Below are positions 860 through 56,834 of a stretch of DNA of 64,000 nucleotides, one piece after another. Made by a program: the position numbers and the translations under genes. Position 1 is the stretch's first letter. The number at the start of each line of letters is the position of its first letter. The stretch is from Octopus vulgaris (lineage: Eukaryota), in contig OX597819.1 in NCBI GenBank assembly GCA_951406725.2, positions 99,076,001-99,140,000 on the forward strand, given 5' to 3'. The notes under the pieces were generated by a model. It made no database searches, had not been told where the DNA came from, and saw only the letters and a list, made by a program, of their open reading frames with translations.

Positions 860-1800
860 AACAACAATCCTGTACTCGTTTCAGATATGTGGCCGGAAAG
901 ACACCGCCGTCATTTTCATTTTTCATTCGGTAGGGTACATTTAACTTGCTGGCCATTTGATGGCAGTCTATATGCCAGGCCCTCTGCCACTGTTTATGCA
1001 TGATCCAGAAATGCAACTCTTTCAGAGAGCCGAGCTGCAGAAAAGTGCATCTAGCAAACGACAACCATACCTGCTCACTGTCAAGGATACGCTGAAGATG
1101 ACGTAACCTCAGTGCATGCGTATGTTTCATTAGCCATAGCATGCTCAGTTCCTCATTCAGTAGACGTTCACGGAAAATGGAAGTTTTCCATTCTTGATAG
1201 CCATGAAGCGGAGAATGGAACGGTATGAGATGACGAATGTTATGTAGGCATTGCCCACTTTCACTCTAATGTTCAATAATAGTTTTCACTCGATCCATTT
1301 CTGAGTGAGACTAGCTATTTTGCTCGTTACCTCTTCGCGGTTCTTGTTCACCTGGAGATCTGGAACAAACTAGAGCTTGAGCAATTTTGGTGGTCCATCC
1401 ATCCAGTGTCTCACGACGCTGTTAGAAGGCACGGGCCTGCCTCTCCAGGCCCGACGACTTCTGGTTAATTTTTGCTCCTCCTGTTACGGTCTCGTATTCC
1501 CTTAAGGCAGTTTCGATTACCTCGATGTGTTCGATGTCTGACAGCATTACGGTGACGCCGTCTACATATGCATATACGAATCTTTCGCATCGTAGTTCTG
1601 GAGTCGTGACTCTCGAGAGAGGGAGCACCCTTGACAGACCGAATAATTATGACAGGTGCTCGATTATGCGGACCACCAAACTGATGTTACTCTCTGTTGC
1701 AGCGATCGATCTGAAAACGGGGTGGAAACCAACCGCCTTGAGGACAGATACCAAGTATTGATGGTCGACCTTACCGAAAGCTTTCAATTGATCGTAATCA
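860..1800 (-). mobile_element. Degenerate L1/Tx1-clade LINE RT fragment
   Basis: Minus-strand translation gives DQLKAFGKVDHQYL (RT motif 3-like) and YAYVDGVTV...REYETVTGGAKINQKS (YADD/motif 5-7-like); frameshifted. Confidence 0.7.
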
Positions 1801-2234
1801 GAACCCCGCTGATATCTTCTTCTTCTTCTTCCAATCAGGACTCACGCCATTAGCCACAAAGAATAATCTCTAATTCGAGCCTACTCTAAGCTACTAAGAA
1901 TCCACCCACTAAGAATCCATACTAAGATCCACCCACCACACGCGATAGACTGGTGGTTGCACGGGCGCGAAAGCTACGTCGTTATCCTCATTCCGTAAAC
2001 GGTGGCTTTTAACAGCAGGTGGAGAGCTGAACCATCCTGGGGTAGAGAGGATTCGCAATCTAGACTAGAGTCTGAAAGTTTACCACACCATAGTGGGTTA
2101 CACCATGGTTCCTCTGCTTTGTGGCAGAAGTAGGAAGAAAGAGTGAGAGAAAGTCGTGGTGAAAGAGTACAGCGGGGTTCACCACTCCTCGCCGCCGGAG
2201 CCCTCCCCGCCGGAGCACTCCCCGCCGGAGCCAC

Positions 2235-2331
2235 GTGGTGTTTTTGCTCAATAATGCTCGGTCTGGGAATCGAAACCGCTTTCTTACGACCGCGAGTCCG
2301 TTGCCCTAACCACTGGGCCATTGCGCCTCCA
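2235..2331 (-). mobile_element. tRNA-derived SINE head, family C
   Basis: Reverse complement reads ggaggcgcaatggcccagtggttaggg...ggtttcgattcccagacc; related heads near 24885, 51885, 52500 and 56835. Confidence 0.7.
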
Positions 2332-2793
2332 CCCCGCTGATGTTGCTGCTTTTTTGTTATAGTTGTGCTTGTTCTCGTATTCGTTTGCTCCATCATTGCT
2401 ACTGGTGGTAGTTAAGCAGCTGAGTTTAGAGCTGAGGTACGTGGAATCGCCGCTGTTTAGTATCGTAGCCATGGGTTTCGTTTCACTGCCTATCACTTCA
2501 TACCGTGAAGTGGGCGTGCGTGCTGATGCCGTCATGATTTTAAACATTAAAATTTACGATTATGGTGAAGCTTTTATTATAAGAAACGTGCTCCTTAGGG
2601 CTCACAATTACTGCCTCCCTCTTTACGCTGTGAAGTAGAGTCTTTGCTTAACAAAATGCCCAAAAGTCTTTTTTTAACAAAACCAGAAGCTATTTCCAAC
2701 AAAAACAACTAACTTTTTACGAGCCGAAGCGAAGCACATCGAATACAGAACAATGACGACCACGATGACGATGTAAGATGATAATGATGAGGT

Positions 2794-2845
<52 letters not shown>

Positions 2846-4052
2846 GAAGAAACGAAATTGGGATCTTTTCAGTTTGAAGGCCAGATTTTCCTAGTTAACT
2901 AAACAATTTGAAACTTCGTATACTGGTAGAATGTGTCAAAAGAAAACATAATTGTAAACCAAAATGAAAACGGAATTGTAATTTCTAAGTTTAACGTTGT
3001 TTAATAATTCGAATTTTAACCAATGGTATTCTTTCTTTCGACCTCATATTATTTAATGCCTCTCAAAATATTGTTACTGTGACGTAAACAGCTATTTTGT
3101 GACGTAGTTAACGTAAACATGTAAACAGACCTAGAGATTCGTTTGTAACGTAAACATCCGCTCATCGTAAATAGCTAAATTCGCTTGGCATCGTACACAG
3201 CTTTTTCAGTTCCCTAGAATTATATTTGAAAGAAAATAAAAAGAAAAAGATTCATACGCCTAAATATCCATCCTTAGACATCAGAAAATGAGTGTTTAAA
3301 TTATTTTCCATTGTTTGCATTGCTTACACACACACACACATACATACATACATACACACATACTAAAATTACATCGTTGGAGCAGTAATTTATTTATGTA
3401 TTTTTTGTTATACAATTTATTTTAAAGCTGAATCCCTATCCTGCCATTAACCCCTTTCTTATAAAATAGTTGAAGAATCTGGGGTGTAGGTATTGGGCCA
3501 GTATTGGAACTTTTAACTTCTTGCTCTCTATCTTATGATCTCCGAAATTTAAGAATCTTGTGTTAACTGGGCTCTTATTATTTACTCTGACTCTGCCACC
3601 ACCTCAATGCAAAGACTATCAATATCAGAATCATCTTCACAACCACCACTACAACCATTACTACAACCTCCAATGCCACCACCACAACCATCTTCTGCAA
3701 CCACAACCCCAAGATCAATACCAGCATCATATTCAAAATCACCAATTTCACCACCACTACACTCAGCAATGTCTTCAACACTACCATCCATGAGATATCC
3801 TAACATAATCAATGCTACTACTACTATCATCATCATTATCATTATCATCCACTGCCGCCGCCACCACCACCACCTCTACAAAAACACCAACACTATAATT
3901 GCTGCCATCATACACATCCACTGTCACCACTACACCACCACCACCACTGCCATGATAACCACATCTACCACCTCCAACACCATTGCCACCACTATCTATG
4001 AGACATCCTAAGTTAGATACTACTTTCACTTTCTAGTTGCTCTTTGAGTTTA

Positions 4053-4438
4053 TCTTTATATATAAAAGAGAGGTTGTGTGTCTGTCTCCTACGATTTAGA
4101 TTCCTAACTACTCCCACATTTTGCGGTGCAGTTTAACCAAACCGGGTATCTTATAGTCGTGATTCATATCGAGCCCTTCTGGGTATTAGCGCGTCTACGG
4201 TGAGTCTACGATTTAAAAAAACATTTACCATCATTTTTTTTTCCATTTTAATGCATTTTTTTTTGCTATTATATAAGGGAAGTAACTCTCTAAAAATGTC
4301 TACGATGAGTCAACGATTTAAAAAAAATTTACCATCATTTTTTTCCATTTTTAATGCATTTTTTGGCTATAACTCTCTAAAAATGCTTATATAGTTATTT
4401 CCCTTACAAACCCGAGCAACGCCGGGCGATACTGCTAG
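4053..4438 (+). mobile_element. Non-autonomous Helitron
   Basis: A|TC start, subterminal hairpin CCCGAGC-AAC-GCCGGG, CTAG|T end; internal ~105-bp tandem duplication. Confidence 0.8.
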
Positions 4439-5251
4439 TTATATCTAATCTATCTCTCTAAAAGATGCAAAGCAAGTAGCATTAAATGGTGAATGGATGT
4501 GAGCAGAAAGAGAGTAAGTTCCATTCCAGTTTACAACAATTATAGAATTATTCTCAAACCATAAATGAAGGGTGGAGAGGAGTGAAGGAGGAGTCATGTT
4601 TCCTCTGAGAGGTTACAGAAGTAATAAGCACTGAAAAGTGGAGTTTGCGTTATTATTTTTGTTTCAAAGTTTACAATTATTTCTACAAATTCATTTTGAC
4701 TTATCTTCAATCATGTTTATAAACGTGACCGCTGTGCCGTCCACTATAAACATTGATTAATGTCCTATATTTAAGCGGTAGACAAACACTTCAGCATATT
4801 ATTTTTTGTAGAGAGTTGTGAGGGATCATTTCTATGAACGGGGTATCTGTACAACGGATTTGACTACATCATTAATTGTGGAGTCGTTTAAAAACACAAT
4901 GCAAGATTAAGTCAACATGGAATTTTTGAAACAATCATAAATTGTTCTATATTTTAGAGATGAGGAATTCTGTACAATATTTACATTTTTTACATCTTGT
5001 TTATTGCTACCACAAAATTTCGGCTGATTTACTCTCCAGCCTTCATCAGGTGTCCTGGTAGAATTTTGAATCCAACCCTAGGTTCTAAGGTGCCACGCAG
5101 TGTGAATGAACCCGAAACTATGTGGCTGGTATGGCCTGTCAGGGAGTCACCATTGCTTTCGTGCCTTTTACGTTCTTAGCAGTGGGAGACGTCTATATTG
5201 CTAAGAGTATAAATAGTTCTCTATGTAATTAAAATTCTTCCTCTCCTTCAG

Positions 5252-5357
5252 AAGCCAAGCCAAGCCAAGCCAAGCCAAGCCAAGCCAAGCCAAGCCAAGC
5301 CAAGCCAAGCCAAGCCAAGCCAAGCCAAGCCAAGCCAAGTCAAGCCAAGCCAAGCCA
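5252..5357. repeat. (CCAAG)n pentanucleotide microsatellite
   Basis: About 20 near-perfect units. Confidence 0.95.
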
Positions 5358-5381
5358 CCTGTGTATAGTGGTAAGACCAAA

Positions 5382-5515
5382 GCCATAGCGCTCACTGTGG
5401 TCTCGTAGCCGTGGACAGTGAGCCCAATGGTGCCCAGAGCGAGCTCTGGTCGCCATAGCGCTCACTGTGGTCTCGTAGCCGTGGACAGTGAGCCCAATGG
5501 CGCCCAGAGCCCAGC
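5382..5515. repeat. 70-bp tandem repeat x2 with internal hairpin
   Basis: Units start at 5382 and 5452; GCTCACTGT...ACAGTGAGC stem in each. Confidence 0.9.
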
Positions 5516-6539
5516 TCAACACACTCCTTATACCCTAAGTAAGTCATGTGTAAAATTTGAATGAAATTGGTTGTGTAGTTCTCAAGTTTTAGGGAAACAC
5601 ACAGACAGACAGACACACATTCTCAGATACATAAAAGAATGAGAGTGGGTGATGTTTTGTTTGTTGGACCAATGTATTAAGGTAGTATTGTTTAATTGTT
5701 TTAAAACGAAAGAGGCAGTGTGTTTGTTTCAAAAATAAAAAAGACAAACGTCCGCCAATGGGAAGACAGTTCATATTCGATTAGAGCACTCTGGGTATAA
5801 TCATAAAAGTGAAAAATGGAATTTTTAGGCAAATCAAACAGTGAAAAAACAAAAACATTAAAAAAAATATAATATAGAAAATATAAAATTGATAAATTTA
5901 AATTAAATTGAAAATAAAAATTACTAAATTATATTTATAATTTGTTTAAAAATATACATAACTATGAAAAAGTATGAAAAAGTTTAATATACATAAATAC
6001 AGATATATACACTTTGTATATATACATTATATATACATATTTATATATAGAACACACACACACATACATTATATATACATATTTATATATAGAACACACA
6101 CACACACACACATACATTATATATACATATTTATATATAGAACACACACACACACACACACATACATATAAATGAACGCAAGAATATCTGATTCATAATA
6201 TTTGTTCTCATGCTCGTGTGTTGTTGGTGACAGACAGATACGTAAAAGAACGCCGATGTAATGGGAAGGTAAAAAACAGAGTGAGTGAAAAAGAGAGGAA
6301 ATAGCGAGAGTGACAGATACTTTAAATAACGGTAGTGGAATTATCAAAGTTATAGATGAAGGGGAGTGAGAGGGTACTGGAGGAAATAGCGTGAGTGAGG
6401 AAGATGGCCCCTAGCAACCACACCTTTTAAGATAGGGATTTCTAAGGTAGCCCACGAGCTTCGTCACCTATTTCTACATGTCCCTGTAAATTTTGGAGCG
6501 AATCGGACGGGACGTAGTGGTATTGAAAGCGATCCAAGC

Positions 6540-6588
<49 letters not shown>

Positions 6589-7563
6589 CTGAAGTTGTCT
6601 GGATATATGTATGTATGTATGTGTGTGTGTGTATACGTATGTATGTGTAGAGACCTCTTTTGGCTCCACCTGAGTTTTGAAACTGAATGGGTAAATTTCC
6701 CCCTAACTTTTGAGCCTTATTGTTCTGTTGAGGAACAATGTTGTTTTATTCAACCGATGGCCTTCCCAACATTTGATTGATGTATTTTCCTCTTGACCCA
6801 TAACCCTTCTAATTTGTAAAGGGTTTAAATAAATAATATAAGGGATCTTTACCCTTTCAACGGCAGATCGAGAAATATATTTTTTGTAACTAAACACTTT
6901 CAACCTTCGGACACTAACCCTAACCCTAATGTGTCATATAAAACATATTTTACTTTTAATGTTACTCTTGACCGCGGCCATGCTGGAGCATCACCTTTAA
7001 TCGAGCAACTCGACCCCGGGACTTATTCTTTTTGTAAGCCCAGTACTTATTCTATCCTTAACCAATCATATTTTCTGTTTTCATTTGAAATTATTAGCTG
7101 CATAGTGTTAATGTGACGTAGATAGCTATTTTGTGAGTGGGTAAGCAGTAATCTGTGGTAGATGTGGTTATCATGGCAGTGGTGGTGGTGGTGACAGTGG
7201 ATGTGTATGATGGCAGCAATTATAGTGTTGGTGTTTTTGTAGAGGTGGTGGTGGTGGTGGTGGCGGCAGTGGATGATGATGATAATGATGATGATAGTAG
7301 TAGTAGCATTAATTATGTTAGGATGTCTCATGGATGGTAGTGTTGGTGTGTGTGTGTGTGTGTATGTATGGATCAAAACAGTTTGATCCAAATTCTGTGG
7401 TACTTATATATTCATACATACATATACATGTAGATGTATATAACATATATATATATTGTATGTAAACATCTTTTATATATATATATAATGTATGCATCTA
7501 TAATACTCACACATTATAAATATATACACATATATGCATATGCATTAGAATATGTGTGTATAG

Positions 7564-7624
<61 letters not shown>

Positions 7625-8265
7625 TATGTTTGTATACATGTGTGTGTAGCTATTTAGGATCTACACAAATTTTATATATACTCCACGAAGTTTATGATAA
7701 GCGGAGATGTTTACATTTTAGTTAGCTATTTACATGTTTACGTTAACTACGTCACAAAATAGCTGTTTACGTCACAGTAACAATATTTTGAGAAGCAGTA
7801 AATAATATGAGGCCGAAAGAAAGAATATCATTGGTTAAAATTCGAATTTTTAAACAACGTTAAACTTAGAAATTACAATTCCGTTTTCATTTTGGTTTAC
7901 AATTGTGTTTTCTTTTGACACATTCTACCAGTATACGAAGTTTCAAATTGTTTAGTTAACTAGGAAAATCTGGCCTTCAAAAAGAAATGATCCCGAAATT
8001 GAAAGCACTTGTGTTTTAATCATACACTCACACACACAAACATACACACACACACACACCACACACATGCACTCACACATACACACAGACGTGCACATAC
8101 ATACACTCTTATTACGCACATCTACACGATCATTCACACGCATTCACTATTAAATACATTAATTCGAGCATAAGCGGGCATTCACATGAACACGCATATA
8201 CCCAAAGGCACGCACACATTCACGTACACATACACACACACATGCACACACACACACACACACAC

Positions 8266-8332
<67 letters not shown>

Positions 8333-8968
8333 AAGTGACAGTAAAATCAACATTGATTCATTTCATTGGTGTCATCATATGAAAATTCTCTGAGACTAAT
8401 TTCCGCTTGCCATATTATATGAATATAATTGGTCAAACCTGTCGTTAGACAATAACAAGAAGCAGGAATGGCTGCATTTGGAGGACAGATATAGAAGGTA
8501 TGGGGTTGGTAATTGTTTGTTACAAGAAAACTTTGTAGGTTTTCTCTCAGAAATGGCAAATTTGAATTACTTTTCTCGGTATTGAAAACCGATCCAGGTG
8601 GAAATTAATTTTTATTTCTTTATGTTATCAACAACGACTTCTTCAGATATTGTTGTATATGATGATAAACGTGAGAAACGTTGACTTTAGATGTATAGTT
8701 TTGCAGCAAATATTTCTGTATTTCAACTGTCAAATGTAAATCTGCTCAGGTGTTTATGAAGTTGAAGGACCTTCAATGTTGCAGTTGTTGTTGTTGTTGC
8801 TAACGTTATTGCTACTTCTGTTAGTGTTGTTGTGATGTAGGCGTTTAGCTGTACACCACCACTGATCTGGAAGACTTATGGACAAAAATGTTCCGACCCA
8901 AATATCTAAGACTATTACGCAGTGTCCTTAATCTTTTAAATGGTAGGCTAGAAAGAAGATTCTAACGA

Positions 8969-9026
<58 letters not shown>

Positions 9027-9098
9027 CATATATATATATAAACGCATATATATATATAAACATATATATATATATAAACACACATATATATATATATA

Positions 9099-9144
<46 letters not shown>

Positions 9145-9228
9145 CATATGTATATATATATATATGTATATATATATGTATATACATATGTATGTATATA
9201 TATATATATATATATATACATATGTATG

Positions 9229-9512
<284 letters not shown>

Positions 9513-9524
9513 TATCTATATATA

Positions 9525-10280
9525 TGCCCTATCAGTATTTGTGAAGGGAAGTCATCCTTCCCGTCTTCAACTCATGATACACACGGACTCGAATTTCAAG
9601 GTATTGACCTATCATCGGCGTGTGACAATCATAGTTGTCGACGAGAAGTCAGCTCTCTTCACAAATACATATACTTTTTCCAGTATCGATTGACACTGAT
9701 ATTGAAAAAGTGAAATCAAACAATGATAAATCTCAGAGCGAGTTATAAACAGTAGCGACAACACGTGACGTATATTTGCCATTTGAATATGGCTAACCCC
9801 TAAGGGTGGATGCTACTGTAGTTTGTAGCCCCAGGAAGACACCTCCATAGGGCTTAGCCATATTCAAATGGCAAATATACGTTATGATGTGTTGCCGCTA
9901 CTGTTTATAACTCGCTCTGAGATTTATCATTGTTTGATTTCACTTTTTCAATATCAGTGTCAATCGATACTGGAAAAAGTATATGTATTTGTGAAGGGAG
10001 CTGACTTCTCGTCGACAACTATGATTGTCACACGCCGATGATAGGTCAATACCTTGAAACTCGAGTCCGTGTGTATCATGAGTTGAAGACGGGAAGGATG
10101 ACTTCCCTTCACAAATACTGATAGGGCACAGAAAATGTGTCTACAGCCAGCTGGAGGAGGTGTCTTCCTGGGTCTACAAACTACAGTAGCATCCACCCTT
10201 AGGGGTTAGCCATATTCAAATGGCAAATATACGTCACGACGTGTTGCCGCTACTGTTTATAACTCGCTCTGAGATTTATC

Positions 10281-10283
<3 letters not shown>
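9525..10283. mobile_element. Penelope-like/retrozyme-like unit: inverted plus partial tandem copies of a 352-bp monomer
   Basis: Arms 9525-9802 and 9848-10128 are reverse complements; the + strand monomer restarts at 10200 (period 352); duplicated at about 17450-18207. Confidence 0.7.
10029..10073 (+). ncRNA. Minimal type I hammerhead ribozyme candidate (U4C core)
   Basis: CACACG-CCGATGA-T-AGGT(CAAT)ACCT-T-GAAAC(TCGA)GTC-CGTGTG; stem I extends with bulges to 9985/10118. Confidence 0.6.
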
Positions 10284-10345
<62 letters not shown>

Positions 10346-10632
10346 GATACTCTCTCATTTGATTCCCAGTCCTAATAATTTTTGTGATATTGTCTGCTGT
10401 CGTGCCTTTGCTGCTAAATGTCCTTTTACAGTAGCATATTTTGGCATTCTTTTGGTTGAATCCGCAGAAATGCCAAAATGAACAACTGGTTTTGTTTGAT
10501 AATTTCTGTAAAAAAACTGTTATTTATTTACTTTTGTTTTAAAGTGAAAGAGAGGAGAAAGTGAAGGATGTACGTACGTACGTGTATCTGAAATGGACGT
10601 GTGTGTGAGTAAGTGAGAGAGGGAGAGAGAGT

Positions 10633-10673
<41 letters not shown>

Positions 10674-10857
10674 GGGTGTATTGTCATGTATACTTACATA
10701 CATAAATAAATATGCATACAACTTTTGGTATGTATGTGTGCATGTGTGTGTGAGAGAGAGAGAGGGGGAGAGAGAGAGTGAGTACTACTTAGACATCACT
10801 CTTTCTTTCTCTCTCTGTCTCTCACACACATACGTACACATACAAAAAGATGAGTGC

Positions 10858-10888
<31 letters not shown>

Positions 10889-12557
10889 TGTATTTATGTA
10901 TGCATGTATGTATTCATGACAACACACCCCTTCACTCACTCTCTGACTCTCTCTCTCACGCTCTCTCACCCCTCCACACACACACACACATAAATGTTTA
11001 CAAACGCACATACAAAAACACACGTGTGCGTGTGTAACTGACAGCAAATACATAGAGCTGAAAACGGCGCGCAAAAAGTAAACGAATAAAAAAATTTTAC
11101 GGAAATTAACGAAGTGTGTAGGTTCAAGCGAAAGAATGACCATATTTTTTTGTATACCTCATGTTGAATTGCAAAATTTTAATGTGGTATTTGTGTAATA
11201 AAGAAATCAAACCTGAAGCGTGTGTGTATGTGTTTATATTACAGAAACAGTGTGTGTGTGTATAAGAGAGAGAGAGAGAGACAGACAGAGAGAGACAGGC
11301 AGACAGAGAGGAAGGGAACATGGCAAACAATGAATGAAATAAACATGAAATGAAAAAATCGTATAAATAAAAGCTCGTTAAAAACAGTCTTGTACTGAAT
11401 ATTTAAATTTGTGAACTCGAAATATTTAATAAAAAAAAGGAAGTTTCAGAAAGTAAATTTTCTTGAAAACTTTAATTTATAAAAAATCTCACTTGCTTAG
11501 TAAATATTTCTTTCAATAATTTATCGTAGTTGTTTGCAAATAGCGGATTAAAACTTGAAATGTAAACATTGAAGTAGAGAGTGAGAGGTTTCGCAAATAA
11601 AAACGAAAAGTTTCGCCTGCAACGGTTGCTACGTTAACACCGGAAGATGACATTGAAAATCCTTGAAAGAAGTAAATCATATATATAAAACAATATTATT
11701 TATTTTTAATGAAAAAATGAAATGAAACCCTATTATGTATCCAAGATCAAATTATTCATGCACCCCAGCCGTTTTCGTGTGAAAAGCGAATACACACACA
11801 GAGGTTTTATATATATATATATATATATACATACACACATGCATTTATGCATACATATATGTATATATGTGAGTGTGTGTCTGTACTTACAATAACGCAC
11901 ACATAGGGAGGGACAAGACATGTTAAAAGGAAGTTAAAGAAACCTGAAAGGGTGAAGATGTAAATGTAAAGAAGAAGGAAAAGAAAGCGGAGAGGAAATA
12001 AAAGAAAATATGGAACTTATGAGGGTCTTTCACAACTCTCCATGATAGATACCATTCAGGCGTCCAGTGTAACATTTGGGCGAGTGTCATTTTCTATAGT
12101 CACGGATCAACCCATTCCTTGCAAGTGAAATCGTGAAAACTGAGTTGATAGAATTTGTTTTTGAAGCTCTTTGGAGGGATTGTACTTGTAATTCAAAGGA
12201 ACACACTTGTCCACACGGTATCATACTGATCTTGCTTGAGAATTACGGGAAGGGCACACGAGTTTGTGGAATGCTCAGTTGCTTACACGCTAATTTTAAG
12301 AGCTGTTAATTCAGTTTCTTTTAGTTGATCGAATAGCAATTGAATCCTCATAGTCAAAACCAAAGTTGAAAGGAGTGAAATTAACGGAAGACAGCAGAGT
12401 TTCACATCCTCGTGGTTAAAAAAAATGTTAGGGGATGTTAAGTTAATCGATTTCAGGAGTGGCATTTATTTTATCGACTTCGAAAGAGTGAAATGCAAAG
12501 TCGACCTCGGCTGAATTTCGACTTAGAAAGTAAAAACAGACGAAATGCCGTTAAACG

Positions 12558-12793
12558 TTTCTTATTTCTTTATTTCCCACAAAGGGCTAAACACAGAGAG
12601 GACAAACAAGGACAGACAAACGGATTAAGTCGATTATATCGACACCAGTGCGTAATTGGTACTTATTTGATCGACCTCGAAAGGATGAAAGGCAAAGTCG
12701 ACCTCGGCGGAATTTGAACTCAGAACGTAACGGCAGACGAAATACGGCTACGCATTTCGCCCGGCGTGCTAACGCTTCTGCCACCCTGCCGCC
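12558..12793 (-). mobile_element. tRNA-derived SINE, family B (Meta-domain-like)
   Basis: Reverse complement has a tRNA-like head plus gtcgactttgcctttcatcctttcgaggtcgat...agtacc; duplicate at 20467-20702. Confidence 0.8.
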
Positions 12794-13467
12794 TTAATTA
12801 TGGTGGTAGTTATAATAACGCGTAAGATAATGTTGAAAATGATGATGACAGTGATGGTGGTTGCGATGTAATAATGACAATAAAATAGAATGACGACAAA
12901 GACGACGACAATGATTATGAAAGCGATAGTGGTAGCGGCGACGACAACCACGACTATGATGAGGATTACTATTTTTATGAAAAAGAGGTAGAAACAGAAG
13001 AGGAGGGTACTATTGATGACTACGTATCTAAACATGAAATTGAGGATGAAAAGAAAACCTAATTTGAATTTCATGTACCTATTTTGCTGTTTCCGAATGT
13101 CTTTGGAATGAAACGGAAGTTGACACTTATTCGACATGGTTTCTACCTAACCTGACTTCCGGTATTCTCCACAAATGGCCGAAATAATTTGGTAAAATTA
13201 GAATATTTGTGCAGTCTTACACCACTATATTCGTCACTTATAATGACGTCTGCAACAACAACATCAATAACAAATATAACAACATAGAAGACGATAGAAG
13301 CACTTTACAAATGTAGAAACGTAAAGAAGTATATTATGTGTGTGTGGGTGCATGCGCGTATACTACGAACACACACGTGTACACATATGCACACACACTT
13401 ACACACATCCACACGCATTTGCGCACATACGCACACATTTGCGCACATACACACACACTCATATCCA

Positions 13468-13525
<58 letters not shown>

Positions 13526-13612
13526 CCTTCGTATGTGTGTGCATGTATGTATTTGTATATATGCATGTGTGTATGTTTGTCTGTATATATGTGTGTATGT
13601 CTTTATATATGA

Positions 13613-13650
<38 letters not shown>

Positions 13651-13811
13651 ACGTGTGTGTACGTGTGTGTGTAAATAGATGTGTGTTTGTCTATATATAT
13701 GTACATGTGTGTGTGTATGTGTGTATGCATGTATATATGCATGTATGTATATATGTACAGAGCATTATGAGGAAGTATAAAATAAAAATAATACCGACAA
13801 CCAAATTTAGC

Positions 13812-13843
<32 letters not shown>

Positions 13844-13892
13844 CGGACACAAAGGCTGAAAGATAAAATACACATTTAAATAATGATGACAA

Positions 13893-13961
<69 letters not shown>

Positions 13962-14586
13962 AAATGATGATGATGATGATGATGATAACCAAGTCCAAAA
14001 GAAATGAGTTTGAGCGTGTTGATCACGTCATGCCTTGTAAAAGAAAATAAACAAGAGACGACAGATTTGGGAAAAAGCTTTTGATTCGGAGATTGTATGA
14101 AATAAAAGACGTTTTACATGACAACAGAGAAAAATTTCGTTTGAGATTTCCAGTGATAAACATTGTTATTAAATCAAGGTGGAAGTTGTGTTATGTGGTC
14201 TGTTTATAGTGTCTGGCCCACGACTCACCACAACATCAAAGAGATTTTATAAGAAGTTTTCAGCTTGATTTACTCATAAAATTGTATTTATGAGCTAGTG
14301 TCATATTGGATTATAATTTTCGTTTTCGAATAGAAATCAAAATGACAGGTTTTTTTATTGCACTCACATGCAAACTAGTGCAGAACTGTGCAAAGTATTG
14401 CAGAATTATTAATGTATACGGTATTGTGTGATAAATGGCGTGGAATCTTTTTCTCTTTACATGGAACAGTCATTAGACTGTGGCCATGCTGGGGCACCGC
14501 CTTGAAGAATATTTAGTCGAATCAATTAACCACAGTAGTTATTATTTTTTTTTGTTAAGCCTGGTACTTATTTTATCGGTCTGTTT

Positions 14587-14686: not shown

Positions 14687-22556
<7,870 letters not shown>

Positions 22557-23253: not shown

Positions 23254-23315
23254 CGTTTTAGGATTTGGTTTGCAAGATTCTTTATATGAGTTCGTGTGTT
23301 GAAGCATATTCTGTT

Positions 23316-23570
23316 GTGTCTGGGTAGAGTCATTTTCTTTTTGTACCTTATAATATAACACACTCACAGGTAAAATTTCCACTTATTTCTTATTTTTATT
23401 TTCCTAAAATTGTCGTTGCGTCTTGCAACCTTTTGTAAGTCAAGTCTATTGAAAAGGTTGCAAGACGCAACGAAAATTTTAGGAAAATAAAAATAAGAAA
23501 TAAGTGGAAATTTTACTGGTGAGTGTGTTACATTATAAGGCACAAAAAGAAAATGACTCTCCCCAAACAC
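23316..23570. mobile_element. Penelope-like palindrome (~119-bp arms)
   Basis: 23316-23434 is the reverse complement of 23452-23570; flanked by (TA)n; related fragments near 24370 and 34625. Confidence 0.65.
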
Positions 23571-23575
23571 GACTG

Positions 23576-24024
<449 letters not shown>

Positions 24025-24446: not shown

Positions 24447-24830
24447 CTTTACTCTCTTTTTACTCTTTTACTTGTTTCAGTCATTTGACTGCAGCCATGC
24501 TGGAGCACCGCCTTTAGTCGAGCAAATCGACCCCGGGACTTATTCTTTGTAAGCCCAGTACTTATTATATCGGTCTCTTTTGCCGAACCGCTAAGTGACG
24601 GGGACGTAAACACACCAGCATCAGTTGTCAAGCGATGTTGGGGGACAAACACAGACACAGAAACATATACACACACGTACATATAAATATACATATATAC
24701 GACGGGCTTCTTTCAGTTTCCGTCTACTAAATCCATTCACAAAGCTTTGGTTGGCCCGAGGCTATACTAGAAGACACTTGCCCAAGGTGCCATGCAGTGG
24801 GACTGAACCCAGAACCATGTGGTTAGTAAG
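24447..24830 (-). mobile_element. SINE family A
   Basis: Reverse complement of the 32638 copy. Confidence 0.85.
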
Positions 24831-34903: not shown

Positions 34904-35099
34904 GGTACTATTTAAGAAGAGTGGTCCCAGTGTGCATACTCTCGTACTCGCGCTAGCTAGTTGTGACTAGTCGATCCTACAACGACTACCTAGCAAAGTA
35001 AATAAAACTCAAAAATACAAAGTAAGGATCGACTAGTCACGACTAGCTAGCGCGGATGCGTGAGTACACGCACCGGGACCACTCTTCTTAATTAGTACC
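34904..35099. mobile_element. Hairpin MITE with GGTAC termini
   Basis: GGTACTATTTAAGAAGAGTGGTCCC...GGGACCACTCTTCTTAATTAGTACC; arms ~75 bp; TSD obscured by microsatellite. Confidence 0.75.
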
Positions 35100-35119: not shown

Positions 35120-36221
35120 CATCATCATCATCATCATCATCGTTTAACGTCCGCTTTCCATGCTAGCATGGGTTGGACGGTTCAACTGGGGTCTGGGAAG
35201 CCCGAAGGCTGCACCAGGCCAGTCAGATCTGGCAGAGTTTCTACAGCTGGATGCCCTTCCTAACGCCAACCACTCCGTGAGTGTAGTGGGTGCTTTTTAT
35301 GTGCCACCGACACAGGTGCCAGACGAGGCTGGCGAATGGCCACGCTCAGATGGTGTTTTTTTGTGCCACCGACACAGGTGCCAGACGAGGCTGGCGAACG
35401 GCCACGCTCAGATGGTGTTTTTTACATGCCACCGGCACGGAGGCCAGGCGAGGCTGGCACGGCCACGATTGGATGGTGTTTGTTACGTGCCCACAATCAA
35501 TGCAGTACTGGCTACGGCCACGTTTGGATGGTTTTCTTATGTGCCACCGGCACTGGTACCACAAAAATACAAATTTCATTGATGTTCATCGATTTTGATT
35601 TGATTTGATTTTCACTTGCCGCAACAGGTCTTCACAAGTAGAGCTATGTGTCCCAAGAAGGAAGGTATGCACAGGTCGACTGACTACGTCCCAGGTAGGG
35701 GCCATGGGTTATGGCCTCACATGTCCTGCCGGGTCTTCTCGCGCACAGCATACTTCCAAAGGTCTCGGTCTCTGGTCATTTCCTCGGTGAGACCTAAAGC
35801 GCGAAGGTCGTTCTTCACCACCTCGTCCCAGGTTTTCCTGGGTCTACCTCTTCCACAGGTTCCCTCAACTGCTAGGGTGTGGCACTTTTTCACACAACTA
35901 TCTTCATCCATTCTTACTACGTGTCCATACCAGCGTAGATACCTCTCTTGCACACCACATCTGATGCTTCTTAGGTCCAACTTTTCTCTCAAGGCACTTA
36001 CACTCTGTCGGGTATGAACGCTGACATTACACATCCAACGGAGCATACTGGCTTCATTTCTTGCGAGCTTACGCATATCCTCAGCAGTCACGGCCCATGT
36101 TTCATTGCCATGTAGCATGGATGTTCGCACACATGTGTCATACAGTCTGCCTTTTACTCTGAGCGAGAGGCCTTTTGTCACCAGCAGAGGTAAGAGCTCT
36201 CTGAACTTTGCCCAGGCTATT

Positions 36222-36223
<2 letters not shown>
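35120..36223 (-). mobile_element. 5'-truncated RTE-clade LINE
   Basis: ORF 35717-36181 ends LRWYGHVVRMDED...GRGRPRKTWDEVV; 3' UTR with ~58-bp tandem repeats and a (GAT)n tail. Confidence 0.9.
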
Positions 36224-37477: not shown

Positions 37478-38215
<738 letters not shown>

Positions 38216-41473: not shown

Positions 41474-41621
41474 TAGCAGAGATACCTGCCTTTGCTTGGA
41501 ATTAAAATGGTATAGTTTTTTTATTGTTTTACTTGTTTCAGTCATGTGACTGCAGCCATGCTGGAGCACTGCTGTTGGTCGAACAAATTGACCACAGGAT
41601 TTATTCTTTGTAAGCCTAGTA

Positions 41622-42848
41622 TTAGGTTGTCAAGAAAGTTCTTGCAGTTTTTAACCTTTAAATTCAGATGCACATATCTCGGCTCAACGGAATAAATACC
41701 ATCAGAATCAACACACTTTTGCCAACACGAAACAAGTTTATTTATGTCAGTAGCATAAAAATTCTGTGTTCTGGTGGCAATGAAGTCATTGAAGGCGTGT
41801 TTGGCATCATCTTGGTTTTTGAAGCATTTCTCACGCAGGAAGTTGTCAAGATGCTTGAAAAAGTGATAGTCGGTAGGTGAGAGGTTTGATGAGTATGGCG
41901 GATGAGGCAGAGTTTCGTAGCCCAATTCGTTCAACTTCTGCAGGGTTAGTTGTGTGACGTGCAGCCGAGCATTTTCATGGAGAAGAATTGGTCCTTTTCT
42001 ATTGACCAATGCCAGCTGTTGTCGGAGTTTCTTATGCATTTCATCCATTTGCTGACCGTATCTCTCTGCCATAATGGTTTCGTCTGGATCCAAAAAGCTG
42101 TGACGGATGAGACCGGCGACATTTGGTGCAACTTTGGCCTTGGTAAGTGCCGTGAAGCTTAATTGGCATCCAACCACTGAGCTGAGCATTGCTGGTTCTC
42201 GTAAAGAATCCACTTTTCATCACAGGTCACAATCTGGTTGAGAAACGGGTCATTCTTGTTGCTTAAAAGAAGGGAAGACGACACTTCAAAACGGCGTTTT
42301 TTGGTTGTTGTTCAATTCATGCGGCACCCATTTCTCAAGTATTTTTGTTTTCCTAATCTCTTTCAAGTGGTTGTCATATACATTATGTGTAATTCAGAAG
42401 CAAGCTCTCAAACAGTTGTGCATGGATTGGCTTCCACTAAGGCTCCTAGTTGATCGTTGTCAACATCCGATGACTGACCACTATGCTTATCATTTTCAAG
42501 ACTCTCGTCACGGCTACGAAATTTCTTAAACAACCATTGTGCTGTACGTTCATTAGTGGTTCCTGGGTCATATGCATCGTTGATATCGTGAACTGTTTCA
42601 GCAGCTTTTCAGCCTAGCTTGAACCGGAATAAGAAAATTGTGTGAATTTGCTTTTTGTCCATGTATTCAACGTTCCAGAAAAAATGGCCTAATTATTCAA
42701 AAAGAAAAAGAGTAACACGATTCCATAGGGTGAAAAACAGGCTTTAAAATGATATATATAGTCAAAGTAATTTAACGAAAATTAATTTGAAAATACATAA
42801 TTTAAAACCAAAATTTAAAATTCCATAAGAACTTTCTTGACAACCTAA
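41622..42848 (-). mobile_element. Full-length defective mariner (Hsmar1/cecropia-like)
   Basis: TIRs TTAGGTTGTCAAGAAAGTTCTT; TA TSD at 41620-41621 and 42849-42850, inside a family A SINE; IVTCDEKW and LPHPPYSSNLSPTDYHFFKHLDNFL; frameshifted. Confidence 0.93.
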
Positions 42849-43044: not shown

Positions 43045-44637
43045 AGCAATAACAGAGGAATTGAGGTAATAATGGAAGAATTCAGGCAATAACAGAGGAA
43101 TTCAAGACAGGTTGCTCCTGGGAGCTCTTCTATGCTGATGACCTGGCCCTCATGGCAGAATCACTACCTGAACTAGAAAAGAAATTTCGGATGTGGAAGC
43201 TAGGTTTAGAATCAAAAGGCCTTAGAGTCAATGTAGCAAAGACCAAAGTTAAAGTAAGTCAGAAGGTGAACTCATCACACACCTCTCAGGTAGGTAGCCC
43301 TGCTTGATCTGTAGAAAAGGTGTAGGTAGAAACTCTACATGATGTACCCAGTGTAAGCTATGGATGCATAAGAGGTGCAGCAGCATCAAAGGAAAATTAA
43401 CCGAGAAGATAGTTTTTGTGTGTGGCAGATGCACAGAGGCAATAGACACCACTGATACTCAGAAAACAGATTCCATTATACTCCAGGAGAAGAAACTAGA
43501 AGTAGTTGATAGTTTCTGCTACCTAGGTGACCAAGTTAGTAGTGTAGGTGGATGCTCAGAGAGTTTTACCACTAGAATAAGAATAGCCTGGGCAAAGTTT
43601 AGAAAGCTTCTATCCCTACTGGTGACAAAGGGTCTCTCTCTCAGAGTAAAAGGTAGATTGTACGACGCATGTGTGTGAACAGCCATGTTTCATGGCAGTG
43701 AAACATGGGCTGTGACTAGAGGACATGCGTAGGCTTGAAAGAAACGAAGCTAGCATGATCTGCTGGATGTGTAATGTCAGTGTCCATGCATGACAGAGTG
43801 TAAGCGCCCCGAGAGAAATGTTGGACATAAGAAGCATCGGATGCAGCGTGCAGGAGAGACGTTTGCGTTTGTATGGTCATGTACTACGGATGGATGAGGA
43901 GAGCTGTGTGAAGAAGTGCCTCTCCCAAATTGTTGAAGGAATCTGGGGTAGAGGTAGACCCAGGAAGACATGAGATGAGGTGGTCAAGCATGACCTTCAT
44001 ATGTTGGGCCTCATAGAGGCTATGAAGAAAGACCAAGATCTCTGGAGATATACTGTGACTTCGAAGACCCGACAAATGAAGTGAGTTCATGGCTCACAGA
44101 ATGGCCTGCTGTGCTAACCTTGGTTGATAGGGCAACACACTGTGCTTGAGGAGACCTATTGTGTCAAGTACATCAACATCAAAATAAAAATCAGAGGGAT
44201 ATTGTAGTTGTGATACCTGTGCCGGTGGCACGTTGGGCCTCACAGAGAAAATGATGAAGACCGAGACCTCCGAGATATGCTGTGACTGCGAAGACCCGAC
44301 AAATGAAGTGAGTTCATGGTTCACAGGACAGCCTGCTGTGCTAATCTGGATCGTAGAGTGACCCGCTGTTCTTGAGGAGACCTATTGAGTCAAGTATGTC
44401 AACACCAACATCAAAAGAAAAGTCAAGAGGAAATTGTAGTTAAGATACCCGTGTTGGTGGCACATAAAAAGCACCCACTACACTCATGAAGTGGTTGGCA
44501 TTAGGAAGGGCATCCAGCTGTAGAAACTCTCTCAGATCAGACTGGAGCCTGGTGCAGCCTCCTGGCTTCCCAGACCTTGGTCGAACTGTCCAACCCATGT
44601 CAGCATGGAAAACGGACATTAAACGATGATGATGATA
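43045..44637 (+). mobile_element. 5'-truncated RTE-clade LINE
   Basis: LLYADDL motif near 43125, KLEVVDSFCYLGD, stops and frameshifts, ~230-bp duplication near the 3' end, (GAT)n tail. Confidence 0.9.
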
Positions 44638-47724: not shown

Positions 47725-48773
47725 GACATGCTTAATCACTCATCAATTAAGACTATTCTGCAGAGACCTGAATAAGTGGAAATCCGAAGGAGCAATATCT
47801 GATGAATATGGAGGGTGGGGTAACACAACCCAGCTGAGCTGCAGCAATTTTTGTCTGGTTCATAAAGAAACGTGTGGTCTTGCATTATCATATTGGAAAG
47901 CAGCACCCTTCCTGTTGGCCAATTCTGGATGTTTCTTTTGAATTGCTGCTTTTAACTCTTCCAGTTCATTGCAGTATTTCTCAGAATTAACTGTCTGGTT
48001 ACTTGGGAGAAGCTCATAGTACAGAATTCTTTTCCAATCCCACCAGACACAAAGCAAGACTTTTTTAGGGTGAAGATCTGCTTTTGGGTTGGCTGAGGGT
48101 GGTTCATGTCACTTACTCCAGGAACACTTTCTCTGAACATTTCAGTAGATAATCCATTTCTCATCACCTGTCACAATTTGCTTTAAGAAAGGTGCGTTTT
48201 CATTCCGTTTATAAAGTGAATCACAAATGGAAACATGATCCAAAAGGTTCTTCTCACTCAACTCATGTGGTACCCAAACATTGTGCTCATGAACAAGAGA
48301 TTTTGATAGGTTGAGGCTTTCTGCTGATTCTCGCGTCGTGCAATGTGGGTTATTCTCAATTAATGACTTGATTTGGTCATCATCTGTAGTGGATAGTCTG
48401 CCTGATCGCTCTTTATCAATAAGGCTACAATCTCCAGCTCGGAACCTTGCGAACCACTTCCATACAGTTCTTTCAGATAAAGAAACATCACCATAAACTG
48501 CAAATATTTCTTTGGTTGTTTGTGAGGCATTTTTCCCTTTATGGAAAAAGAAAAGTATCAAGTGCCGAAAATGAACTTTCTTACCTTCCATTTTAAAGGG
48601 TTACAGAATTAACACAGGTTATAGGAACATAAACCTTCTTCCATGAAAAGATAGCTTAAACTGTGCTGTAAATGGAGGTGTAGTCAAATCCTATTTTATG
48701 GACTCAACCATGTTCTAAAATAAGTCGAAAGGTAAGCTACTATAAATCAGCATGAACTTTCCGGACAACCTAG
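47725..48773 (-). mobile_element. Defective mariner (mellifera-like), 3'-truncated
   Basis: MEGKKVHFRHLILFFFHKGKNASQ, WVPHEL, IVTGDEKWI, YDNARPH, LPHPPYSSDIAPSDFHLF; one TIR ending ...GGACAACCTAG|TA. Confidence 0.92.
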
Positions 48774-49519: not shown

Positions 49520-49965
49520 GGCACAACTAAGTACCGATATTTACTGGAAATAGCGAACGTAAAAATACGTACCGATATTTACTGGAAATAGCGAACGTAA
49601 AAATACGACGCTAATGTATAGCTTCACCGCGTATGTATTAGTAAAAATGCGTGTGTGCAACAAACTAGAGAAAAACGTCTTACCTCCAGGGAGAACATAT
49701 ATACATATACACCAGAGTAAGCACATAAATGCGAAACAAGGTGGACAAAATAGTACTCGAATACCAGAGGTAGAGTAATATGCTTTATTAAAAAGCAGCA
49801 AAAATATCACAAAAACTGTTACTCAGAGTTTTATGTTCCCGTTTGTTGAACAGTGTTGTTTAGGATGGAGCCTTATTTTTGTTCCATTCTAAACATAACT
49901 GTCCAACAAACGGGAACATGAAACTCCGAGTAACAGTTTTTGTGATATTTTTGCTGCTTTTTAAT
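49520..49965. mobile_element. Penelope-like fragment with terminal palindrome
   Basis: Arms ~49787-49870 and 49881-49965; 39-bp tandem duplication at 49531; decayed hammerhead-like motif. Confidence 0.6.
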
Positions 49966-49968
49966 TAA

Positions 49969-50002
<34 letters not shown>

Positions 50003-55280: not shown

Positions 55281-55910
55281 AGGTTAAAGCTTAGAAGAGG
55301 AAGGACAGTATCTCTGACGTTTACAAGGTTTTCAAAACTGCTTTGAAAGTGAGAAGAAATTATGAGTTGGTCCAACTCACATACTTAAACACTGTGTTTG
55401 TTTAACAAACATTGACTCAAAAAGCTTGGGCTGCTCCGAGCCTGTGACAGAAAACACCTCAGTTGTTATTCAGTACACTAGAGCCTGGAATCACATGATC
55501 CAGAGCTAATTTTTTTCTTTTCTTTATAGTATTAAGTGGATGCAAAATAAATGTCTCAGGATAGTATGTTAGTCTATTTCAGGTAACTTCCCAGGAGGTG
55601 TGGTGCCTACAGCTGGCAGATAATTGAAGGGAAAGAAAGAACGTAGAAATAGAACCTTGAGCTCAGAAATACATCATACCTACCATAGATTCGAACCCTT
55701 GACCATTAAGGTCATCTCTAGATGTAAACATTTAGAATAATGTTAATGTTGTCACTGCTTAGTCCCAGGTTAACCCCGACTGAGCAGAAGGTATAAGATC
55801 AAAGCTAGTACCATCCTGCACATCTCTCGTGTATTGTATATTACGGTCTACATGATACAATACATACCCCACTTTAAGGATAGCAAAGCATCATTTGAAG
55901 TAAATTTGGC

Positions 55911-56326
55911 GAATCTTTTCAGTTTGAATGGCAGTTTTCAACATAATTTCTAGGTAACTAAAAAATTTTAAACTTCGTATACTGGTAGAATGTGTTTATA
56001 AAGCATCTTTTTCTCTTGGCTTTATTGAGAAAATTCTATAGTTTGTAAGATATTTGTTGTTTTTTTTTCTTCAATTTCTTCAATTTCAAACAATCACTGA
56101 CGTCTATTGAGGTAAAAAAACATTCTGTGCCGTATGAATATGTCCCTCGTTTAAGAAACAGATTGGGTTTATTTACAAGAAAAAAAATACCCTTTCCCCC
56201 CCTCCTAACCTTAACCCTAACCCTAAAACAGATTGAAATGCAATAGATCGATACTAGGGTCATAATTATTGGTGACAATTTCATATGACACCGCTAGAAA
56301 AACTGTCGTTCAAACCGAAAAGATCC
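55911..56326. mobile_element. MITE of the GGATC-terminus, 8-bp-TSD family
   Basis: ~28-bp TIRs GAATCTTTTCAGTTTGAATGGCAGTTTT / AAAACTGTCGTTCAAACCGAAAAGATCC; TSD AATTTGGC/AATTTGAC. Confidence 0.85.
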
Positions 56327-56834
56327 AATTTGACTAGTATTTCTAGCAGGTCGGATATCTACATAAAATTTTTTTCTGTCACTAATTCGTAGACTTTGTG
56401 GTTTGTTTGGAGGAGGTGGTGGTGGTGAAATCTACGCCTGGAAAATATATTGGAAAATATTTAAAAAAAACAATTATTTCAGTTACCTCCCTTTAATAGT
56501 ACATAATCCCACAAGTTATCTCCCTTACACTTAACACTATTCTTTAATAATAATCCTTTTTTTCTGTAGGTGCAAAGCCTGATATTTGTGAGGATGGGGC
56601 TTGTTGATTACATCTAGAGATGACCTTAATGGTCAAGGGTTCAACAGGTGAGGCCAAGAATTTTTAAGAATGGCTGAGTTTGTCAATACAAACGACACAG
56701 TATTTGACGGTGACATTATTTTATCGATATCGAAAGAGTGACCTAAGTGAGATATGACTTCCGAACGACAGAATCGATCTCTGCAGGATTCGAACTCTGT
56801 CTTGAGCTTTTTATGTATTACAATATGTGATGAT

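What the first reader, a model, noticed from the sequence alone, without database searches (positions are those of the whole stretch)
2853..8001. 5.1-kb composite TIR transposon with perfect 8-bp TSD carrying cargo
Seen: the layout is A(2861-3170)-B(3775-3970)-[~3.2 kb]-B'(7150-7345)-A'(7690-7993), with GGATC...GATCC termini and CGAAATTG duplicated on both sides. The interior holds a Helitron, SINE pieces, microsatellites, a hammerhead remnant and a diverged third TIR copy (6843-7140), but no transposase. Knowledge: GG termini with 8-9 bp TSDs typify Merlin; long TIRs with cargo typify Pack-MULE/foldback elements. Inference: two inverted MITE-like units moved together with the DNA between them. 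Some cargo may have inserted later.
Basis: partly seen in the sequence, partly recalled or inferred. Interest (0 to 1): 0.75.

Follow-up and report, generated by a model that had tools for sequence, protein, structure and literature searches.

The report
Octopus long-armed transposon holding repeat debris
A 5.1-kb stretch of an octopus genome has matching inverted ends and an exact 8-base insertion footprint but no detectable gene, so it is likely one non-coding cut-and-paste transposon, probably Merlin-type, that likely filled up with ordinary repeat DNA: a real but familiar kind of element.

Summary
The anatomy is real. The arms 2861-3128 and 7726-7993 match at 258 of 268 bases. They start GGATC and end GATCC, and CGAAATTG flanks both (chance 2.5e-5 to 4e-4). 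A second inverted pair (3776-3971 / 7155-7345), a Helitron-like piece, SINE-like pieces, a decayed hammerhead core and a diverged third arm lie inside. No transposase or gene fragment was found. The host is an octopod.

The reading 'two MITEs moved together' is not supported. Neither arm has an inner terminus, and the DNA between A and B is unrelated to that between B' and A'. The simpler reading is one non-autonomous element with 268-bp terminal inverted repeats, inserted once by a transposase encoded elsewhere. A related 416-bp MITE in the window also has GG-type ends and an 8-bp duplication (7 of 8). That fits Merlin, but MULE is not excluded, since no transposase was linked.

Whether the interior arrived before or after insertion is untested: no genome, donor locus or empty site could be examined. 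Long-TIR, multi-kb, repeat-laden Merlins and animal Pack-TIRs are published. Interest is low.

The parts
2853..2860 (+). left target-site duplication CGAAATTG
2861..3128 (+). left terminal inverted repeat (A), starts GGATC; repeated TGTGACGT / GTAAACA motifs in its inner third (binding sites inferred)
3129..3171 (+). ragged inner extension of the left arm, partly matching 7691-7725 with indels
3590..4010 (+). CAC/CAT-rich low-complexity tract, weakly tandem (period about 180), containing B
   Evidence: upstream unit vs B reached by 8 of 300 shuffles
3776..3971 (+). B, likely donor of the inner inverted copy
4053..4438 (+). non-autonomous Helitron-like insertion (TC...hairpin-CTAG, A|T site)
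   Evidence: hallmarks recalled
4670..4941 (.). old small inverted-repeat remnant (57-nt arms, 75%)
5018..5049 (-). decayed hammerhead core, likely from a Penelope-like repeat
   Evidence: no Rfam match; architecture compared with passages of PMC4209133
5087..5131 (+). piece of a dispersed SINE-like repeat
   Evidence: 5 other copies in the window; SINE label recalled
5252..5357 (+). (AAGCC)21 microsatellite
5382..5510 (+). 70-nt direct duplication (98%)
6843..7154 (+). diverged solo third arm (A3), same direction as A; motif block best kept (37 of 43)
6948..7056 (+). SINE-like piece inside A3
   Evidence: 98 of 107 to copy 24458-24571; SINE label recalled
7155..7345 (-). B', sharp-edged inverted copy of B, abutting the end of A3
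7346..7690 (.). TA/CA-rich spacer, unrelated to 3172-3775
7726..7993 (-). right terminal inverted repeat (A'), ends GATCC
7994..8001 (+). right target-site duplication CGAAATTG
55911..56326 (+). related 416-bp MITE outside the finding: about 27-nt TIR, left end similar to A over 76-84 nt, 8-bp flanks match at 7 of 8

Best explanation
The 5,133 bases between two exact 8-base repeats are bounded by 268-bp inverted arms and hold no detectable gene, so they are likely one non-autonomous cut-and-paste transposon, probably Merlin-type, likely inserted once by a transposase encoded elsewhere and likely swollen with host repeat DNA by template-switching repair. SHOWN: arms, TSD, no coding content found, patchwork interior, inner inverted copy B'. 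INFERRED, step by step: (1) a DDE transposase acting in trans bound the arms and made an 8-nt staggered cut, giving the duplication; (2) the family's own middle was replaced by host DNA through break repair with template switching, as in animal Pack-TIRs; B' would be one such copy, taken from the left part of the same element in inverted orientation; (3) the Helitron-like piece and microsatellite growth likely came on top. The arms differ by 3.7% (95% CI 1.8-6.8%), about 5 My at the octopus rate of 0.0036 per site per My used in PMC13282606. Whether filling preceded or followed insertion here is open; I put it near even.
For: - Exact 8-bp flanking repeat, unique to that length; chance 2.5e-5 to 4.4e-4.
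- Arms 258 of 268, then similarity decays with indels, as expected for natural left and right ends.
- No inner right-facing terminus.
- The related MITE 55911-56326 has an 8-bp duplication at 7 of 8, and its outer bases are C and A. That favours GG...CC ends with 8 bp over GGG...CCC with 6 bp.
- Host is an octopod: the window's DPM1 is 93% to Octopus bimaculoides and 91% to Argonauta.
- Merlin is abundant in O. bimaculoides (191 sequences; PMC8101967) and recently active in O. vulgaris (2 families, 11 insertions, 28,998 bp; PMC13282606).
- Repbase Merlins with long TIRs and long repeat-rich interiors exist: Merlin-1_DR (TIR 1000 bp, repeats listed to position 10,335), Merlin-N5_DR (no domain, TIR 1000 bp, repeats to 4,284), Merlin-1N1_LVa (TIR 325 bp) (supplement of PMC8101967).
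- B/B' (4 of 188) and A/A' (10 of 268) do not differ in age (Fisher p 0.41). B sits in a wider tract of like sequence while B' has sharp edges.
- The interior resembles surrounding DNA in GC and microsatellite load.
Against: - No donor copy of the interior was found. The window holds none apart from the gap duplicate, but only 2.8 kb could be checked on the left.
- 'Interior older than arms' is weakly supported. The SINE-like piece differs from its closest copy at 7 of 87 vs 10 of 268 for the arms (Fisher p 0.14), and A3's 66-68% may reflect another subfamily rather than age.
- At about 4.5 kb the filler exceeds the largest human Pack-TIR (3,585 bp; PMC8277862).
- MULEs also have long TIRs and 8-11-bp TSDs (PMC6446971), and no transposase ties these ends to Merlin.
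- No family member with a 268-bp arm was available: 0 matches in five collection scans.
Confidence: 0.65

Rival explanations
1. Composite transposon: two separate MITEs of one family flanked a piece of host DNA in inverted orientation, and the transposase used their outer ends to move everything.
For: Exact TSD around the whole unit. In the related 416-bp MITE only the left end resembles A beyond about 27 nt, so A and A' look like two 'left ends'. The interior looks like ordinary host DNA.
Against: No inner termini found. The spacers next to the arms are unrelated (37 of 300 shuffles). Both units would need to have lost their inner ends at about the same arm position. TIRs of this length are normal for Merlin.
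Confidence: 0.12
2. No capture: an older long-TIR element sat here and collected nested insertions one at a time (Helitron, Penelope, SINE, A3, microsatellites), with the arms kept alike by conversion between them.
For: The Helitron-like piece has intact insertion hallmarks. The age gap between interior pieces and arms is not significant for the one piece tested (p 0.14). Nearly all of the interior is repeat-derived or low-complexity.
Against: An intact 8-of-8 TSD has probability 0.73 at 3.8% divergence but 0.17 at 20% and 0.06 at 30%. The SINE-like, hammerhead and A3 pieces are truncated or decayed, which would need much decay after insertion. No terminus or TSD partner was found for A3.
Confidence: 0.17
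3. Same structure, but the family is a MULE/Foldback (Pack-MULE-like) rather than Merlin.
For: MULE TIRs are commonly hundreds of bp and TSDs are 8-11 bp (PMC6446971). MULEs with a solo internal TIR are described in tomato (PMC3310237). O. vulgaris has 55 Mutator vs 18 Merlin families.
Against: GG termini plus 8 bp is the Merlin signature. The related MITE has a short 27-nt TIR with the same terminus and 8 bp. Most MULE groups in the table seen list 9 bp or more where a length is given.
Confidence: 0.2
4. Chance or artefact: two independent insertions with coincidentally equal flanks, or a chimeric assembly joined through the repeat.
For: The assembly is imperfect here: a 7.8-kb duplicate across a 100-N gap begins inside the element.
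Against: Flank identity has chance 4.4e-4 or less. A chimeric join would be expected to give unequal flanks. Arms differ at 10 sites, unlike a read fold-back. Bases 6750-8269 are identical in the second contig.
Confidence: 0.03

Closest known systems
Non-autonomous Merlin elements with long TIRs (Repbase Merlin-N5_DR, Merlin-1N1_LVa; superfamily as described in PMC8101967)
   Same: GG termini, 8-bp TSD, TIR of a few hundred bp, multi-kb size, internal tandem repeats, no transposase domain.
   Different: No transposase partner was linked, and no sequence similarity to a named Merlin was tested. The interior here is a patchwork of other repeats, with a solo third arm and a second inverted pair.
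Animal Pack-TIRs (Tan et al. 2021, PMC8277862): single-copy gap-filling and multicopy FoSTeST types
   Same: Both ends of one TIR element with a TSD enclose 0.1-5 kb of non-family sequence; B' looks like a short cis-templated copy.
   Different: Their definition needs an identifiable parent copy at 90% or more, which was not found here. 87% of theirs are hAT or TcMariner. 'Merlin' occurs in their 12 text-held supplements only as a column header and 'octopus' not at all. No gene fragment here.
Plant MULEs with additional or solo internal TIRs (Ferguson and Jiang 2012, PMC3310237)
   Same: Outer TIR pair with a TSD plus one internal TIR copy without its own TSD.
   Different: Those are tomato, maize, rice and Arabidopsis MULEs; here the internal arm is only 66-68% alike and is interrupted by a SINE-like piece.
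Composite or macro-transposons formed by two nearby elements
   Same: Host-like DNA between two inverted related ends, one TSD around the whole.
   Different: No inner ends of two complete units were found.

Membership tests
Merlin superfamily | Termini 5'-GG...CC-3' | tested here: met
   GGATC...GATCC; definition in PMC8101967
Merlin superfamily | 8- or 9-bp TSD | tested here: met
   8 of 8 here; 7 of 8 at the related MITE 55911-56326. Only two insertions seen.
Merlin superfamily | TIR length within the described range (24-462 bp; up to 1000 bp in Repbase) | tested here: met
   268 bp; ranges
Merlin superfamily | Autonomous partner with DDE_Tnp_IS1595 transposase sharing these ends | not testable with these tools
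   No genome held. No such domain in 39 of 57 element frames or 119 of 167 outside frames scanned. The arm motif has 0 hits in the 11 supplements of PMC8101967.
MULE / Foldback | Long TIRs and 8-11-bp TSD | tested here: met
   268 bp and 8 bp; definition in PMC6446971
MULE / Foldback | MULE transposase in a partner with these ends | not testable with these tools
   None in the window frames scanned; no genome held
Pack-TIR (Tan et al. 2021) | Both flanking ends from the same TIR element, interior 100-5,000 bp | tested here: met
   Arms 96% alike; interior about 4.5-4.6 kb; criteria
Pack-TIR (Tan et al. 2021) | Unique parent copy of the interior elsewhere (90% or more, 80-120% of length) | tested here: inconclusive
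   None within the 64-kb window; the rest of the genome is not available
Pack-MULE / gene-carrying Pack-TIR | Captured host gene fragment | tested here: not met
   0 of 39 frames reach a Pfam cut-off; the longest frame (152 aa) has no relative at E 1e-8 among 77 candidates. Short exons or UTR pieces would be missed.
Composite transposon of two MITEs | Each flanking unit has or had its own inner terminus | tested here: not met
   No minus-strand terminus inside the element at up to 8 mismatches in 24; deleted ends cannot be excluded
Composite transposon of two MITEs | Empty site with a single CGAAATTG in other individuals or species | not tested
   No read-level or orthologous-site data were obtained

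The most novel reading that the evidence does not exclude
The whole 5.1 kb jumped as one piece and belongs to a multicopy family of Merlin elements that carry kilobases of host DNA around octopus genomes. B' would then be a snapshot of arm lengthening by fold-back template switching. No Merlin Pack-TIR and no octopus appear in the text-held supplements of the main animal survey, and paper searches (listings only) showed no such cephalopod case.
Probability: 0.2. Interest if true: 0.45.

Novelty: new member of a known kind. Interest (0 to 1): 0.2.

Why it matters
As it stands, little: a young non-coding TIR element in a genome about two-thirds made of repeats (PMC13282606 for O. vulgaris). It matters for annotation, because pipelines would split it into many pieces and miss the 5-kb unit. 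If the filled unit proved to be multicopy, it would add Merlin and cephalopods to the short list of animal DNA transposons that move captured host DNA (4 multicopy Pack-TIRs in 100 reference genomes in PMC8277862). It would then offer a concrete route for local DNA shuffling in octopus genomes.

Tried and rejected
- Whole-genome search: no genome is held for this window.
- Pattern scans for arm motifs gave 0 matches each: viral contigs, metagenomes, prokaryote genomes. That is expected for an octopus repeat and says nothing about the family.
- Sequencing runs: 19 of 24 listed runs hold part of 1500-8900, 8 hold half or more of its words, under 4 organism labels. No read or contig alignment was obtained, so this is not used as evidence, and empty site, copy number and donor stay open.
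- Rfam: nothing at gathering score in the window; 3 chance-level matches and no hammerhead at 4850-5250.
- Pfam: two sub-threshold hits in the element (TrpP E 0.006, AKAP28 E 0.036) rejected as noise. Outside the element, only DPM1, mariner and RT remnants.
- Gene cargo in the 152-aa frame 3553-4008: no relatives.
- A 6-bp TSD with GGG...CCC ends is formally possible; rejected because the related MITE has C and A at those outer positions and an 8-bp match.
- A-B and B'-A' as long arms or twin units: the spacers do not align inverted (37 of 300 shuffles). The direct comparison (10 of 300) is between two microsatellite-bearing spacers and is not taken as homology.
- A3 as the partner of A' in a smaller element: A3 is far less alike than A, and its upstream 8-mer does not match the right TSD.
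- The second right arm at 15663-15930 as another insertion: rejected; it is part of the 7.8-kb duplicate across the gap.
- Earlier findings of this scan: three look-ups were empty and one returned 8 unrelated notes; none used.
- The TE consensus library of PMC13282606 is on Zenodo and could not be seen; it may already name this family.
Full report
OBSERVATION. The outer arms 2861-3128 and 7726-7993 match at 258 of 268 positions without gaps. Likeness then continues with indels to 3171/7691. The element starts GGATC and ends GATCC, and CGAAATTG lies at 2853-2860 and 7994-8001. Among flank lengths 2-12 only 8 gives identity. The chance is 2.5e-5 from base composition, or 4.4e-4 from the window's 8-mer counts, and the 8-mer occurs 2 times in 56,030 non-redundant bases. 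Because the 8-mer begins with C and ends with G, it could also be read as 6 bp plus GGG...CCC ends. A related 416-bp MITE at 55911-56326 argues against that: its flanks match at 7 of 8 and its outer bases are C and A. Its left end aligns with A over 76-84 nt, while its own TIR is only about 27 nt.

INTERIOR. B (3776-3971) and B' (7155-7345) are inverted copies with 184 identities, 4 mismatches and two indels. Their divergence does not differ from that of the arms (Fisher p 0.41). B lies in a wider CAC-rich tract that is weakly tandem (8 of 300 shuffles), while B' is a sharp-edged excerpt abutting the third arm, so I infer B is the donor. The third arm (6843-7154) is significant in both pieces (0 of 300 shuffles each) but only 66-68% alike. 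A SINE-like piece (6948-7056) replaces part of it, and its best-kept block (37 of 43) is the repeated TGTGACGT/GTAAACA motif region, which I infer to be transposase binding sites. A Helitron-like piece at 4053-4438 has TC and CTAG ends, a hairpin and an A|T site (hallmarks recalled). A hammerhead core lies at 5018-5049 on the minus strand. It resembles the minimal Penelope hammerheads in passages of PMC4209133, lacks a palindromic helix III (my reading) and has no Rfam match. The SINE label is recalled; the calls show only a dispersed repeat. Of 57 frames of 40 aa or more, 39 were scanned and none reaches a Pfam cut-off. The longest has no relative among 77 candidates. GC (0.356 vs 0.374) and microsatellite fraction (8.3% vs 6.0-11.9%) match the surroundings.

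CONTEXT. The window's single-frame DPM1 gene is 93% identical to that of Octopus bimaculoides and 91% to Argonauta, so the host is an octopod. Bases 6750-14586 recur at 14687-22556 across a 100-N gap, with 29 mismatches and 16 gaps, mostly in microsatellites; 6750-8269 is identical. I read this as an unmerged assembly overlap or a second haplotype. It shows the right arm and right flank a second time but is not another insertion. No Merlin or MULE domain was found in 119 of 167 outside frames of 75 aa or more.

TEST OF THE COMPOSITE IDEA. Two MITEs moving together should each have an inner end. A scan with three 24-nt terminus variants at up to 8 mismatches finds no minus-strand terminus inside the element; the only clear inner hit is the third arm, which points the same way as A. 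The spacers beside the arms do not align inverted (37 of 300 shuffles). One point favours the composite: in the related MITE only the left end resembles A beyond the short TIR, so A and A' look like two left ends. Deleted inner ends cannot be excluded. I give the composite 0.12.

MECHANISM. I commit, at 0.65, to one non-autonomous element with 268-bp TIRs. It was likely inserted by a DDE transposase acting in trans that cuts the target with an 8-nt stagger, and its middle was likely replaced by host repeat DNA through template-switching repair, with B' as a small visible product of such copying. Arms, TSD and the lack of detectable coding content are shown. The transposase, capture, the direction B to B' and the order of events are inferred. 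The evidence that the interior predates the arms is modest. The SINE-like piece differs from its closest copy at 7 of 87 against 10 of 268 for the arms (p 0.14). A 45-nt piece differs at 5 sites from the majority of five copies that differ at 1-3. A3's distance may be a subfamily difference. The intact TSD favours a young insertion (probability 0.73 at 3.8% divergence, 0.17 at 20%). Piecemeal nested insertion therefore remains a real rival (0.17). The arm divergence gives about 5 My at 0.0036 per site per My, if the arms were not homogenised.

COMPARISON WITH KNOWN SYSTEMS. Merlin is defined by GG termini, 8-9-bp TSDs, 24-462-bp TIRs and an IS1595-type transposase (passages of PMC8101967). The first three are met and the fourth could not be tested. 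That paper counts 191 Merlin sequences in O. bimaculoides. Its table of Repbase families (part 1 of 2 read) lists long-TIR, multi-kb, repeat-laden members, including domain-less Merlin-N5_DR. PMC13282606 (parts 1-2 of 3 and a supplement search) reports 18 Merlin and 55 Mutator families in O. vulgaris, with 2 Merlin families recently active. MULEs share long TIRs and 8-11-bp TSDs (passages of PMC6446971), and MULEs with a solo inner TIR are known (passages of PMC3310237), so MULE stays at about 0.2. PMC8277862 (abstract, part 1 of Results, sections 8, 9 and 14, passages, supplement search) describes 370 animal Pack-TIRs. Most are single-copy and made by gap filling, 57% lie within 15 kb of the parent, and 4 are multicopy. 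This element works like a Pack-TIR, but the parent copy that defines membership was not found within the window. Other papers were seen as listings only.

LIMITS AND VERDICT. No genome was held, five collection scans found no family member, and no read-level data were obtained. Copy number, donor, partner transposase and empty site are all untested. The finding is a real, fairly young TIR insertion of a familiar kind with no gene cargo found. Novelty: new member of a known kind. Interest 0.2. The boldest reading left open is a multicopy Merlin family moving kilobases of host DNA in octopus (probability 0.2, interest 0.45).

Noticed in passing
window 6750-14586 and 14687-22556: 7.8-kb duplicate across a 100-N gap, differing mostly in microsatellites; likely an unmerged assembly overlap or second haplotype that begins inside the element.
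   Followed up: partly
window 55911-56326: Related 416-bp MITE with GA/GG...CC ends and an 8-bp duplication (7 of 8). It sits between a separate 38-nt inverted pair (55693-55730 / 56605-56642, 97%).
   Followed up: partly
window 7370-7389: 20-nt hairpin that begins GGATC and ends GATCC and matches 13 of the first 17 bases of arm A; may be chance or a scar of the same ends.
   Followed up: no
window 37487-38212: DPM1 (dolichol-phosphate mannosyltransferase 1) encoded in one uninterrupted 242-aa frame, 93% to O. bimaculoides; possibly an intronless or retroposed gene.
   Followed up: partly
window 9525-10283: Nested palindromic element: 240-bp arms at 99% (9525-9764 / 9889-10128) overlapping a second inverted pair (9722-9846 / 10156-10283) and an 87-nt direct repeat.
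   Followed up: no
window 23306-23580, 34904-35099, 49783-49969, 52335-52830: Further palindromic MITE-like elements of other families; no 8-bp duplication seen at the ends as aligned.
   Followed up: partly
window 41545-42216 and 47863-48600: Broken Tc1/mariner transposase remnants (Transposase_1, HTH_48).
   Followed up: no
window 43065-43304; 35727-36223 and 43580-44074: Reverse-transcriptase remnant (RVT_1) and a 497-nt repeat pair (78%) that look like LINE pieces.
   Followed up: no
window 5382-5517: 70-nt direct duplication whose units are partly palindromic; origin unexplained.
   Followed up: no
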